Shown here: positions 1-2,053 of the stretch, one piece after another | Layout: each line of letters starts with the position of its first letter | How positions within the stretch are numbered: the first letter of the stretch is position 1 | Assembly: GCF_024223415.1 (NCBI RefSeq) | Contig: NZ_CP100500.1 | Reading direction: 5' to 3' (one strand) | From: Escherichia coli | Lineage (GTDB): Bacteria; Pseudomonadota; Gammaproteobacteria; Enterobacterales; Enterobacteriaceae | Length of the DNA: 64,000 nt | Position numbers and translations under genes: made by a program | Notes under the pieces: model-generated | The model's input: only the letters and a program-made list of their open reading frames with translations | Database searches by the model: none | Told to the model about the DNA's origin: nothing

Positions 1-2053
1 AATAAAAACAAAGATCAATGAAGGCGGTACGCTGACAGTCAACGATAATGGCAAAGCGACAGATATCGTCCAGAACAGCGGTGCCGCTCTCCAGACGAGC
101 ACGGCTAACGGTATTGAAATCAGCGGTACTCACCAGTACGGTACTTTTTCCATTTCCGGCAATTTAGCGACCAATATGTTGCTGGAAAATGGCGGTAATT
201 TATTGGTATTAGCAGGTACCGAAGCTCGCGACTCCACGGTTGGCAAGGGTGGGGCAATGCAAAACCTGGGTCAGGACTCCGCCACAAAGGTTAACTCTGG
301 CGGGCAATATACCCTTGGGCGGTCAAAAGATGAGTTTCAGGCTCTGGCCCGGGCAGAAGATCTCCAGGTCGCTGGCGGTACGGCAATCGTCTACGCAGGT
401 ACGCTGGCGGATGCATCGGTCAGTGGCGCGACAGGAAGCCTGTCGTTAATGACGCCACGGGATAATGTTACGCCAGTTAAACTCGAAGGGGCGGTCCGGA
501 TTACCGATAGCGCGACATTGACTCTGGGAAATGGCGTCGATACCACGCTTGCCGACCTGACGGCTGCCAGCCGGGGCAGTGTCTGGCTTAACAGCAATAA
601 TTCCTGTGCAGGTACCAGCAACTGCGAATATAGAGTAAACAGTTTGCTACTCAACGACGGTGATGTTTATTTGTCAGCACAAACAGCAGCGCCTGCCACA
701 ACTAACGGTATCTACAATACGCTGACAACCAATGAACTTTCCGGTAGCGGTAATTTCTACCTGCATACCAACGTTGCAGGCTCCCGGGGCGATCAACTGG
801 TCGTCAACAACAACGCCACTGGTAATTTTAAAATCTTTGTTCAGGATACCGGCGTCAGCCCACAGTCTGACGACGCGATGACGCTGGTGAAAACAGGGGG
901 AGGGGATGCTTCGTTTACGCTGGGCAATACCGGCGGTTTCGTTGATCTTGGGACCTATGAGTATGTCCTGAAAAGTGACGGCAACAGCAACTGGAACCTG
1001 ACCAATGATGTCAAACCCAACCCGGATCCCAACCCAAATCCCAACCCAAATCCGAAGCCGGATCCAAAACCAGACCCAAAACCGGATCCGAAACCAGACC
1101 CGACTCCCGATCCAACGCCGACACCCGTTCCGGAGAAACGCATCACGCCTTCTACCGCAGCCGTACTCAATATGGCAGCAACATTACCGTTGGTATTTGA
1201 TGCTGAGCTAAACAGTATTCGCGAGCGGTTGAACATAATGAAAGCGAGTCCACACAACAATAATGTCTGGGGGGCGACGTATAACACCCGTAATAATGTC
1301 ACCACCGATGCGGGGGCCGGGTTTGAGCAGACGCTGACCGGAATGACAGTGGGGATCGACAGCCGTAATGATATTCCTGAAGGAATTGCCACGCTGGGCG
1401 CTTTTATGGGTTATTCCCATTCACATATCGGTTTTGATCGCGGAGGACATGGCAGTGTGGGCAGTTATTCTCTGGGCGGCTATGCCAGTTGGGAACATGA
1501 AAGTGGTTTCTATCTGGACGGTGTCGTGAAGCTGAACCGTTTTGAAAGTAACGTAGCCGGTAAAATGAGCAGCGGTGGAGCCGCCAATGGCAGTTACCAC
1601 AGCAACGGGCTGGGCGGTCACATTGAAACCGGGATGCGATTTACCGATGGTAACTGGAACCTGACGCCGTATGCATCGTTAACGGGGTTCACCGCTGATA
1701 ACCCCGAATATCATTTATCCAATGGCATGAAATCGAAATCAGTCGATACCCGCAGTATATATCGTGAACTGGGGGCAACGCTGAGTTACAACATGCGTCT
1801 GGGGAACGGTATGGAAGTTGAGCCGTGGCTGAAGGCGGCTGTGCGCAAAGAATTTGTCGATGATAACCGGGTGAAGGTGAATAATGACGGTAATTTCGTC
1901 AATGATTTGTCGGGCAGACGTGGAATATACCAGGCAGGTATTAAAGCCTCATTCAGCAGTACGTTAAGCGGGCATCTCGGGGTGGGGTATAGCAACGGTG
2001 CCGATGTGGAATCCCCGTGGAACGCAGTGGCTGGTGTGAACTGGTCGTTCTGA
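1..2053 (+). CDS. ypjA: Autotransporter adhesin, C-terminal part (5' end lies outside the window): Gly/Asn/Thr-rich passenger, Pro-rich linker, beta-barrel translocator
   Basis: The reading frame is open from position 2 to TGA at 2051-2053 and ends ...NWSF (aromatic terminus typical of autotransporter barrels). Symbol is inferred from position: it ends about 160 bp from the ssrA 3' end, as ypjA does just beyond CP4-57 in K-12. Confidence 0.8.
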   Translation, partial: IKTKINEGGTLTVNDNGKATDIVQNSGAALQTSTANGIEISGTHQYGTFSISGNLATNMLLENGGNLLVLAGTEARDSTVGKGGAMQNLGQDSATKVNSGGQYTLGRSKDEFQALARAEDLQVAGGTAIVYAGTLADASVSGATGSLSLMTPRDNVTPVKLEGAVRITDSATLTLGNGVDTTLADLTAASRGSVWLNSNNSCAGTSNCEYRVNSLLLNDGDVYLSAQTAAPATTNGIYNTLTTNELSGSGNFYLHTNVAGSRGDQLVVNNNATGNFKIFVQDTGVSPQSDDAMTLVKTGGGDASFTLGNTGGFVDLGTYEYVLKSDGNSNWNLTNDVKPNPDPNPNPNPNPKPDPKPDPKPDPKPDPTPDPTPTPVPEKRITPSTAAVLNMAATLPLVFDAELNSIRERLNIMKASPHNNNVWGATYNTRNNVTTDAGAGFEQTLTGMTVGIDSRNDIPEGIATLGAFMGYSHSHIGFDRGGHGSVGSYSLGGYASWEHESGFYLDGVVKLNRFESNVAGKMSSGGAANGSYHSNGLGGHIETGMRFTDGNWNLTPYASLTGFTADNPEYHLSNGMKSKSVDTRSIYRELGATLSYNMRLGNGMEVEPWLKAAVRKEFVDDNRVKVNNDGNFVNDLSGRRGIYQAGIKASFSSTLSGHLGVGYSNGADVESPWNAVAGVNWSF
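1016..1132 (+). repeat. In-frame tandem dipeptide repeat encoding PNPDPNPNPNPNPKPDPKPDPKPDPKPDPTPDPTPTPVP (linker)
   Basis: Direct reading of codons 1016-1132: repeated CCN-AAY/GAY/AAR units with 6-12 nt periodicity. Confidence 0.85.

What the first reader, a model, noticed from the sequence alone, without database searches (positions are those of the whole stretch)
1016..1132. Tandem dipeptide-repeat linker in the autotransporter
39 codons encode alternating Pro and Asn/Asp/Lys/Thr, built from near-identical 6-12 nt DNA units. Repeats like this are prone to slipped-strand expansion and contraction, which would change linker length between strains while keeping the frame.
Basis: seen in the sequence. 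Interest (0 to 1): 0.25.

Follow-up and report, generated by a model that had tools for sequence, protein, structure and literature searches.

The report
Variable proline-repeat spacer in YpjA adhesin
This is a 39-residue run of alternating proline in the E. coli surface adhesin YpjA/EhaD that most likely acts as a spacer holding the adhesin away from its membrane anchor; its length changes between strains by gain or loss of a 12-base unit, which is ordinary for this kind of surface protein.

Summary
Window 1016-1132 encodes P-X 19.5 times, in frame with the ORF that ends at 2053. The gene is the 3' part of E. coli ypjA/ehaD, an AIDA-I-type autotransporter lying next to ssrA.

The tract sits between the pertactin-type end of the passenger and the alpha-helix that plugs the 12-stranded barrel. 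AlphaFold2 models it as low-confidence coil.

Between fixed anchors that add one codon, AAA (window 1013-1132), ypjA alleles measure 108, 114, 120 (window), 132 and 144 nt. Four of these differ only in the copy number (x1 to x4) of CCCAACCCAAAT. x2, x3 and x4 all occur within the O55:H7/O157:H7 lineage. All in-frame indels in the 1.5 kb compared fall inside the tract.

The window allele is nevertheless stable within clones and laboratory lineages.

A paralogue at the ymgJ-minE locus, also labelled "ypjA" by PGAP, carries a far more variable pure (NP)n tract of 84-252 nt. Relatives in other genera have irregular proline-rich linkers at the same junction, and YejO has none.

Best reading: an extended spacer with loose sequence constraints, whose length drifts or is tuned by slippage. 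This is a new member of a known kind (compare the pertactin R1/R2 repeats). Interest is low.

The parts
1..2053 (+). 3' 2.05 kb of ypjA/ehaD (AIDA-I-type monomeric autotransporter); the gene starts upstream of the window
   Evidence: ORF in frame to the stop at 2051-2053. Pfam AIDA, Pertactin and Autotransporter beta-domain. PGAP labels it 'adhesin-like autotransporter YpjA/EhaD' in matching genomes. The window's first 25 kb are 100% identical and collinear with strain KV7, where the gene is intact at 4587 nt.
635..1003 (+). Pertactin-type domain, the C-terminal end of the beta-helical passenger (autochaperone region)
   Evidence: PF03212 covers residues 212-334 of the 683-aa fragment, E = 7.7e-46. 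It aligns to P.69 pertactin 1dab residues 414-534. AF2 beta-strands end at fragment residue 134.
1016..1132 (+). (Pro-X) dipeptide-repeat linker of 39 codons, about residues 1184-1222 of the 1528-aa protein by my coordinate arithmetic
   Evidence: Translation. TRF period 12/24/36. AF2 pLDDT below 50 and no secondary structure at fragment residues 140-176, which is the tract. Length differs between strains.
1028..1051 (+). Two exact tandem copies of the 12-nt unit CCCAACCCAAAT; this is the segment whose copy number varies x1 to x4 among ypjA alleles
   Evidence: 16-nt exact repeat at 1026/1038. x1 in ECONIH1, 746 and EC31; x2 in the window and O157:H7; x3 in O55:H7, TX 265-1 and PT62; x4 in DEC5B.
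1148..1240 (+). Alpha-helical linker predicted to run through the barrel pore
   Evidence: AF2 helix at fragment residues 183-213, pLDDT about 90. Homology to the BrkA translocator 3qq2 and to Vag8 7akv. The ITPSTAAVLNMAA motif is conserved across homologues.
1265..2050 (+). 12-stranded outer-membrane beta-barrel translocator
   Evidence: PF03797 covers residues 422-661, E = 1e-46. AF2 beta-strands run from residue 221 to 482 of the fragment. BrkA 3qq2 aligns end to end.

Best explanation
The tract is the proline-rich linker of the E. coli autotransporter adhesin YpjA/EhaD.

Shown:
- It lies in frame between the pertactin-type C-terminal domain of the beta-helical passenger and the alpha-helix that occupies the 12-stranded outer-membrane barrel.
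- It is predicted to have no folded structure.
- Its length is polymorphic in steps of 6-12 nt, chiefly through copy number (x1 to x4) of the unit CCCAACCCAAAT.

Inferred:
- After secretion the tract lies just outside the barrel mouth.
- Alternating X-Pro cannot form helix or sheet, so it probably adopts an extended, polyproline-II-like and protease-tolerant conformation of roughly 12 nm (39 residues at about 0.31 nm each).
- It would then act as a spacer or stalk that projects the adhesive beta-helix away from the membrane and through the LPS layer.
- Sequence constraints are loose: Pro at every second position and hydrophilic residues between.
- Replication slippage between adjacent identical units adds or removes dipeptide blocks without breaking the frame. 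Spacer length therefore drifts, or is tuned, between lineages.
For: Anatomy:
- Pfam Pertactin at residues 212-334 and Autotransporter at 422-661 flank the tract at 339-377 of the fragment.
- PDB homologues pertactin, BrkA and Vag8 align on either side of the tract but not across it.
- The AF2 model (mean pLDDT 83.7) gives coil with pLDDT below 50 exactly at residues 140-176, then a helix at 183-213, then the barrel strands.

Polymorphism:
- Alleles of 108, 114, 120, 132 and 144 nt were extracted between fixed anchors (window 1013-1132). The 108/120/132/144 series differs only by whole 12-nt units.
- In a spread sample of 60 of 2525 records the shares were about 15% for 120 nt, 50% for 114 nt, 28% for 108 nt and 2% for 132 nt.
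- Within the O55:H7/O157:H7 lineage, DEC5B has x4, seven other O55:H7-labelled records listed have x3, typical O157:H7 has x2 and O157:H7 TX 265-1 has x3.
- Every in-frame indel in 1.5 kb across 11 ypjA alleles lies in the tract. K-12 has 12 substitutions plus a 6-nt deletion in the tract against 9 substitutions in about 1400 nt of flank.

Loose constraint and spacer role:
- E. albertii-labelled proteins (P0005, P0006) and the related unlabelled P0002 have (D/K/N/E-P)n linkers of 19-33 aa. A Citrobacter, Salmonella and Leminorella homologue, plus unlabelled relatives, have irregular Pro-rich linkers at the same junction. YejO has none.
- X positions tolerate N, D, K, T, V, I, A and E.

Literature:
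- Pro-rich linkers between barrel and passenger have been proposed to stay unfolded and extend reach (bioRxiv 10.1101/2022.02.15.480547).
- TonB Pro-X repeats are expected to form PPII helices (PMC12204202).
- YpjA is associated with biofilm formation (PMC9289746).
Against: - No experiment on this linker exists in the searchable literature. The spacer function and the PPII geometry are inferred.
- YejO, a 52%-identical paralogue, lacks the linker entirely, so it is not needed for secretion and may be dispensable.
- Many ypjA copies are pseudogenes: IS5, IS1203 and frameshifts. This argues for weak selection on the gene as a whole.
- The window's allele is stable within clones. About 27 O145 genomes, the K-12 derivatives and the isogenic series show identical spans. 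Slippage here is therefore slow, and some length differences could have spread by recombination rather than arising repeatedly.
- AF2 low confidence is compatible with a spacer but does not demonstrate an extended rod.
Confidence: 0.7

Rival explanations
1. Neutral coding VNTR. The junction only needs some unstructured connector, or none. The tract's length and sequence are selectively irrelevant by-products of slippage in low-complexity DNA, and no tuning of reach occurs.
For: - YejO has no linker at the same junction, and other genera have unrelated irregular Pro-rich sequences there.
- ypjA is frequently pseudogenised.
- The paralogue's (NP)n ranges from 84 to 252 nt with no obvious preferred length.
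Against: - Pro is kept at every second position in nearly all alleles although the DNA units are only about 80% alike and use three synonymous Pro codons. This implies protein-level constraint.
- All observed length classes are multiples of 6, which preserves the dipeptide register.
- A Pro-rich segment recurs at this junction in most homologues examined, across several genera.
Confidence: 0.3
2. Antigenic variation. The tract is a surface-exposed, immunogenic repeat, and length or sequence changes help escape antibodies, as proposed for the pertactin R1/R2 repeat regions.
For: - The tract is predicted to be exposed and unstructured.
- The pertactin proline-rich repeat regions R1 and R2 vary in repeat number among alleles, and escape from antibody binding has been suggested as the driver (PMC8931430).
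- The tract evolves much faster than its flanks in K-12.
Against: - Variation is slow and clone-stable.
- In laboratory K-12, adhesion phenotypes of this gene were, by my recollection, seen on overexpression (Roux 2005; not checked here).
- No immunological data exist for YpjA.
- The pertactin antibody study found no antibodies that engage R1 or R2.
Confidence: 0.1
3. Secretion aid. A segment that cannot fold keeps the C-terminal passenger region translocation-competent and forms the hairpin leg in the barrel during export, so the tract serves biogenesis rather than the mature protein.
For: - The tract lies immediately N-terminal to the pore helix, separated by 5 residues in the model.
- The adjacent pertactin/autochaperone domain is the first part of the passenger to emerge and fold, according to the autotransporter literature (PMC5767081).
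Against: - YejO, and autotransporters in general (BrkA, pertactin, AIDA-I by my recollection), are secreted without such a tract.
- Linker lengths from 0 to 80 aa are tolerated in the family.
Confidence: 0.1
4. Length differences arise mainly by recombination or gene conversion between ypjA alleles and the ymgJ-minE paralogue, not by local slippage.
For: - O157:H7 TR01 carries a paralogue-like 3' 1.5 kb, with an (NP)15 tract, in the long gene at the ypjA position.
- Tract history is decoupled from flank history. The window and EC4115 differ by 1 substitution in the tract and 30 outside it, whereas K-12 differs by 12 in the tract and 9 outside it.
Against: - The x1/x2/x3/x4 series differs only by whole copies of one 12-nt unit on otherwise identical tracts, including within the O55:H7/O157:H7 lineage. 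That is the signature of local unit gain and loss.
- The paralogue's runs of identical hexamers (AATCCA x8, AACCCG x6) also indicate in-place expansion.
Confidence: 0.15

Closest known systems
Pertactin (Bordetella P.69 Prn) proline-rich repeat regions R1 (GGxxP)n and R2 (PQP)n
   Same: Both are proline-rich tandem repeats in the passenger of a classical autotransporter. Both vary in copy number among alleles on a slow, between-strain timescale. [quoted passage not shown] The YpjA domain just before the tract is a Pfam Pertactin domain and aligns to 1dab.
   Different: R1 and R2 are described as large variable loops connecting rungs of the beta-helix. The YpjA tract lies after the last folded passenger domain and directly before the pore helix. 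The unit is a dipeptide X-Pro rather than PQP or GGxxP. No role in immunity has been shown for YpjA.
TonB domain II (Glu-Pro)n(Lys-Pro)n region of Enterobacterales
   Same: Both have alternating X-Pro with acidic and basic residues (here D-P and K-P interleaved) and are expected to form an extended polyproline-II spacer (PMC12204202).
   Different: TonB spans the periplasm and transmits force. The YpjA tract is N-terminal to the pore helix and therefore extracellular by homology to the BrkA and Vag8 structures. It is not homologous to TonB; the resemblance is in composition only.
Proline-rich linker of other T5aSS autotransporters (e.g. Agrobacterium Aat/Atu5364; Citrobacter, Salmonella and Leminorella homologues found here)
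   Same: The position is the same, between the barrel/helix scaffold and the folded passenger. The proposed role is the same: to stay unfolded and extend reach. Pro-rich segments occur at the identical junction in homologues.
   Different: Most of these are irregular Pro-rich sequences. The E. coli and E. albertii-type proteins have a strict dipeptide repeat encoded by tandem DNA units, and so show copy-number polymorphism.
Trypanosoma brucei procyclin/PARP (Glu-Pro)n repeats (Pfam PF05887)
   Same: Long acidic X-Pro dipeptide repeats on a cell-surface protein, which is why Pfam gives a weak hit (35.7 bits).
   Different: The score is far below the family's 100-bit gathering threshold. The match is one of composition, not homology.

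Membership tests
Classical monomeric (type Va) autotransporter, AIDA-I type | C-terminal 12-stranded outer-membrane beta-barrel translocator | tested here: met
   PF03797 scores 160 bits against a cut-off of 26. BrkA 3qq2 aligns over 283 residues. AF2 predicts barrel strands at high pLDDT.
Classical monomeric (type Va) autotransporter, AIDA-I type | Alpha-helical linker preceding the barrel | tested here: met
   AF2 helix at fragment residues 183-213, pLDDT about 90. The ITPSTAAVLNMAA...RERL motif is conserved in homologues.
Classical monomeric (type Va) autotransporter, AIDA-I type | Beta-helical passenger with AIDA repeats and a pertactin-type autochaperone domain | tested here: met
   PF16168 AIDA has 10 stretches in the full-length KV7 protein, and PF03212 Pertactin covers residues 1057-1179. 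Both are also found in the window fragment.
Classical monomeric (type Va) autotransporter, AIDA-I type | N-terminal Sec signal peptide | not tested
   The N-terminus lies outside the window. The full-length KV7 gene is intact, and a display-toolkit paper lists a 29-aa YpjA signal peptide (PMC13101318). No signal-peptide predictor was run.
YpjA/EhaD orthologue of E. coli | High identity to K-12 ypjA and the same chromosomal position (between ileY/ypjC and ssrA) | tested here: met
   97.9% nt identity to K-12 EMG2 over window 1-2236. ssrA lies 160 nt downstream. The KV7 and NCTC10444 context is tRNA-Ile ... ypjA-ssrA-smpB.
Coding VNTR (in-frame tandem repeat with copy-number polymorphism) | Head-to-tail DNA units whose size is a multiple of 3 | tested here: met
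   TRF period 12/24/36 with no indels. Two exact 12-nt copies at 1028-1051.
Coding VNTR (in-frame tandem repeat with copy-number polymorphism) | Different copy numbers in different isolates at the orthologous locus | tested here: met
   x1, x2, x3 and x4 of CCCAACCCAAAT. Indels are confined to the tract.
Contingency locus / rapid within-population variation | Frequent, reversible length change within a clone or culture | tested here: inconclusive
   No change among about 27 O145 genomes, the K-12 derivatives, 86-24 derivatives or the 2020N21-110 and 2022N21-074 isolate series. One O157:H7 strain (TX 265-1) differs from the rest. Finished genomes cannot reveal minority variants.
Polyproline-II rigid spacer (TonB-like X-Pro rod) | Extended PPII conformation | not testable with these tools
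   AF2 gives only low-confidence coil. CD, NMR or SAXS would be needed.
Polyproline-II rigid spacer (TonB-like X-Pro rod) | Spans the periplasm | tested here: not met
   The tract is N-terminal to the pore helix, on the passenger side. By the known autotransporter topology it is extracellular after secretion.
Procyclin/PARP (PF05887) | Score at or above the Pfam gathering threshold | tested here: not met
   35.7 bits against a cut-off of 100, and 34.9 bits for the full-length protein.

The most novel reading that the evidence does not exclude
The linker acts as a heritable 'molecular ruler'. Unit gain and loss in ypjA, and much larger swings in the (NP)n tract of the ymgJ-minE paralogue (28-84 residues), would be selected to match the adhesin's reach to the thickness of each lineage's O-antigen or capsule layer. 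Gene conversion between the two paralogues would supply new lengths.
Probability: 0.12. Interest if true: 0.5.

Novelty: new member of a known kind. Interest (0 to 1): 0.2.

Why it matters
The matter is modest. It documents that the linker of a widespread but poorly characterised E. coli adhesin is a slow coding VNTR, and that its paralogue carries a fast one.

Uses:
- Strain typing. The paralogue's (NP)n has at least 18 length classes and is not one of the standard CVN MLVA loci tested.
- Annotation. PGAP gives both loci the same name.
- Design of YpjA-based surface-display scaffolds, where the natural 0-80-residue range shows how much linker length is tolerated.

It does not open a new mechanism.

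Tried and rejected
1. I first treated the pure (NP)n tracts (84-252 nt) as ypjA alleles. Context showed they belong to a paralogue between ymgJ and minE. K-12 has only a 344-nt remnant there. They were removed from the orthologue comparison.
2. I took NCTC10444 as the source strain and concluded that the gene was IS5-truncated. Rfam coordinates disagreed with that record's two IS4 copies. KV7 is the collinear 100% match, and its gene is intact.
3. The apparent -4 nt span in O157:H7 PV15-279 is a frameshift outside the tract. It is not a tract variant.
4. I tested whether the tract is a standard generic E. coli MLVA locus. Primers for CVN001-017 and CCR001 (PMC8143711) match neither the window nor any fetched locus at up to 2 mismatches.
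5. The Pfam Trypan_PARP hit is compositional and below threshold.
6. The minus-strand ORF 955..1392 (GSGFGSGF...) and the +2-frame ORF 1005..1211 are mirror and frame-shifted images of the repeat, not genes.
7. The search for homologous proteins scored only 8000 word-sharing candidates and returned mostly fragments and paralogues. It was useful for cross-genus linker comparison but not for a census.
8. Literature searches found no paper describing the YpjA/EhaD linker or its polymorphism. PMC4275399 (Drobnak 2015) is not held.
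Full report
OBSERVATION

Window 1016-1132 is 117 nt. It translates, in the frame of ORF 176..2053, to PNPDPNPNPNPNPKPDPKPDPKPDPKPDPTPDPTPTPVP. 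Pro occupies all 20 odd positions. The intervening residues are N, D, K and T plus one V. The remaining 644 residues of the window fragment hold only 12 Pro, so this is not chance.

At the DNA level, Tandem Repeats Finder reports periods of 12, 24 and 36 nt with about 80% matches and no indels. Only CCCAACCCAAAT is present as two exact adjacent copies (1028-1039 and 1040-1051), and the longest exact internal repeat is 16 nt. Pro codons are mixed: CCG 8, CCA 7, CCC 5. The protein periodicity is therefore perfect while the DNA periodicity is only moderate. The ORFs on the opposite strand and in the +2 frame are images of the repeat.

WHAT THE GENE IS

The fragment matches Pfam AIDA, Pertactin (residues 212-334) and Autotransporter beta-domain (422-661), all well above threshold. 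It matches the solved structures of pertactin, BrkA and Vag8 on either side of the tract. Against 5,426 complete E. coli genomes it is ypjA/ehaD, the 'adhesin-like autotransporter YpjA/EhaD', lying 160 nt from ssrA.

The first 25 kb of the window are 100% identical and collinear with strain KV7 (pig, Denmark). There the gene is intact: 4587 nt, 1528 aa, with 10 AIDA repeats, Pertactin at 1057-1179 and the beta-domain at 1267-1506. In that protein the tract is about residues 1184-1222.

NCTC10444 is also 100% identical over the matched sequence. It carries an IS5-family transposase gene (ISKpn26) just upstream of a 5'-truncated ypjA, and IS4 copies downstream that the window lacks.

ANATOMY

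An AlphaFold2 model of the last 483 residues was built from 16 aligned homologues (mean pLDDT 83.7). It gives:
- beta-strands up to residue 134;
- a coil with pLDDT below 50 at residues 140-176, which is the tract;
- a confident helix at 183-213;
- a barrel of antiparallel strands.

The order is therefore passenger beta-helix, then pertactin-type (autochaperone) domain, then the (PX)n tract, then EKRITP, then the pore helix, then the barrel. By the established topology of autotransporter translocators, the helix N-terminus faces outward. That topology comes from solved structures including BrkA, which aligns here. After secretion the tract should therefore sit just outside the barrel mouth. 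This step is inferred.

VARIATION AT THE ORTHOLOGOUS LOCUS

I extracted the tract between two fixed anchors (window 986-1012 and 1133-1160). The extracted stretch is window 1013-1132, which adds one leading codon (AAA) to the tract. The ssrA-linked ypjA alleles are as follows.

| Length (nt) | Strains |
|---|---|
| 108 | ECONIH1, 746, EC31 |
| 114 | K-12 |
| 120 | window, NCTC10444, typical O157:H7 (sequenced); O145 strains by span |
| 132 | FDAARGOS_946, O157:H7 TX 265-1, PT62 (sequenced); seven O55:H7-labelled records by span |
| 144 | O55:H7 DEC5B |

The 108/120/132/144 series differs only by one, two, three or four copies of CCCAACCCAAAT. In the closely related O55:H7/O157:H7 lineage x4, x3 and x2 all occur, and one O157:H7 strain has x3.

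A spread sample of 60 of 2,525 matching records gives roughly 50% for 114 nt, 28% for 108 nt, 15% for 120 nt and 2% for 132 nt.

Across 11 ypjA alleles aligned over 1.5 kb, every in-frame indel lies in the tract. The only indels elsewhere are the frameshifts of a pseudogene. In K-12 the tract carries 12 substitutions and a 6-nt deletion, against 9 substitutions in about 1400 nt of flank. The window and EC4115 show the opposite pattern, 1 against 30. The tract's history is thus decoupled from that of its flanks.

The window allele is not hypermutable, however. About 27 O145 genomes, the K-12 derivatives, two 86-24 derivatives and five isolates of the 2020N21-110 and 2022N21-074 series each show one span.

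A PARALOGUE THAT CONFUSES THE PICTURE

Searches with other alleles turned up pure (NP)n tracts of 84 to 252 nt. There are at least 18 length classes and all are multiples of 6. These are not ypjA alleles.

They sit in a shorter gene (about 3.3-3.45 kb) between ymgJ and minE that PGAP also names ypjA. K-12 retains only a 344-nt barrel remnant there. Strain 631 carries both genes.

The arrays contain runs of identical hexamers (AATCCA x8, AACCCG x6) and up to nine consecutive AACCCAAATCCG units. Two alleles of equal length (198 nt) have different internal order. This is the signature of repeated local expansion.

O157:H7 TR01 is an exception. Its long gene at the ypjA position has a paralogue-like 3' 1.5 kb with an (NP)15 tract. 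This is either gene conversion or an assembly artefact.

WIDER FAMILY

Homologues were retrieved from the large protein database. At the same junction, between the conserved GTYEY...W.L and ITPSTAAVLNMAA motifs, they show the following:
- two E. albertii-labelled proteins (P0005, P0006) and the related unlabelled P0002: (D/K/N/E-P)n of 19, 31 and 33 residues;
- a Citrobacter, Salmonella and Leminorella homologue, plus several unlabelled relatives: irregular Pro-rich segments of about 10-45 residues;
- YejO, a paralogue 52% identical to the query: none.

A Pro-rich connector is therefore usual but not obligatory at this junction. Its sequence is free and its length ranges from 0 to about 80 residues.

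MECHANISM

The best-supported reading is an extended spacer with loose sequence requirements. The basis is established properties of X-Pro repeats. TonB Pro-X repeats are expected to form PPII helices (PMC12204202). Proline-rich linkers have been proposed to extend the reach of autotransporter passengers (bioRxiv 10.1101/2022.02.15.480547). Proline-rich repeats are described as loosely structured or stalk-forming (PMC8931430).

At about 0.31 nm per residue, 39 residues give roughly 12 nm. This is my own calculation and the conformation is not shown. [quoted passage not shown] YpjA is associated with biofilm formation (PMC9289746).

Length changes most likely arise by slipped-strand mispairing between adjacent identical 12-nt units. 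This is inferred from the x1-x4 series. The register is always preserved.

Rival explanations considered:
- A purely neutral VNTR. This is plausible given the linker-less YejO and the frequent decay of ypjA.
- Antigenic variation of the pertactin type. No data bear on it here.
- A role in export. This is unlikely, because the linker is dispensable in paralogues.
- Recombination as the main source of length change. The clean unit series contradicts this, although TR01 shows that it can happen.

COMPARISON AND NOVELTY

The closest known case is the pair of pertactin proline-rich repeat regions R1 and R2, whose copy number differs among alleles. TonB and procyclin are compositional analogues only. 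The Pfam PARP hit scores 35.7 bits against a threshold of 100, and the topology differs from TonB.

The tract is not one of the generic E. coli MLVA loci whose primers I could test. No paper in the searchable library describes the YpjA linker.

This is an ordinary feature of a known protein class: a new, documented member of the kind 'length-polymorphic proline-rich repeat in an autotransporter'. Interest is low (0.2). The hypervariable paralogue and the shared PGAP name are the most useful by-products.

Noticed in passing
Not in the window; loci L020 3872-7234 and L021 3860-7252 (ymgJ-minE locus); tracts in L010 and L012-L019: A shorter paralogue of ypjA, which PGAP also names 'ypjA', carries a pure (Asn-Pro)n tract of 84-252 nt. 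There are at least 18 length classes, all multiples of 6, with runs of identical hexamers and 12-mers. It is much more variable than the window's tract. K-12 keeps only a 344-nt barrel remnant at this site (L027 6142-6485).
   Followed up: partly
L009 (O157:H7 TR01, ypjA position): The 3' 1.5 kb of this long ypjA gene differs from typical O157:H7 at 52 sites, many shared with the paralogue type. Its tract is (NP)15 of unchanged length (120 nt). This points to gene conversion between paralogues or an assembly artefact.
   Followed up: partly
window 1-2053 and upstream (L001, L004, L006, L011, L022, L023, L024): ypjA is often inactivated in otherwise complete genomes: an IS5-family (ISKpn26) transposase next to a 5'-truncated gene (NCTC10444), IS1203 insertion (F765), frameshifts (PV15-279, FDAARGOS_946, TX 265-1, DEC5B) and N-terminal loss (PT62). 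Only about 2,500 of 5,426 genomes carry the linker region at all.
   Followed up: partly
window 2054-2576: ypjA is followed directly by ssrA (tmRNA, 2214-2576, minus strand). The K-12 match from the ypjA side stops at window 2236, about 23 nt inside the 3' end of ssrA. From memory, the CP4-57 prophage lies at the 3' end of ssrA in K-12, which would make this overlap its attachment-site repeat and the window strain's site empty. That context was not checked here.
   Followed up: partly
window ~21,160 and ~26,500 (equivalent to L025 19165-20493 and 25935-27263): NCTC10444 is otherwise identical to the window but has two IS4 copies, one between raiA and bamD and one between clpB and the rRNA operon. 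The window and KV7 lack them. This is how the likely source strain was told apart.
   Followed up: yes
window 673 equivalent in L010, L014, L018, L019: Some alleles of the paralogue share a 12-nt in-frame deletion in the pertactin-domain region, outside the Pro tract.
   Followed up: no
window 20335-20460, 23766-23904, 26901-31901, 49957-50788, 53571-53785, 57198-57274: Standard E. coli RNA features at Rfam gathering scores: Phe leader, RyfD, an rRNA operon with tRNA-Glu, AsrC antisense of rseC, rncO, and the OhsC antitoxin sRNA. Nothing unusual.
   Followed up: no
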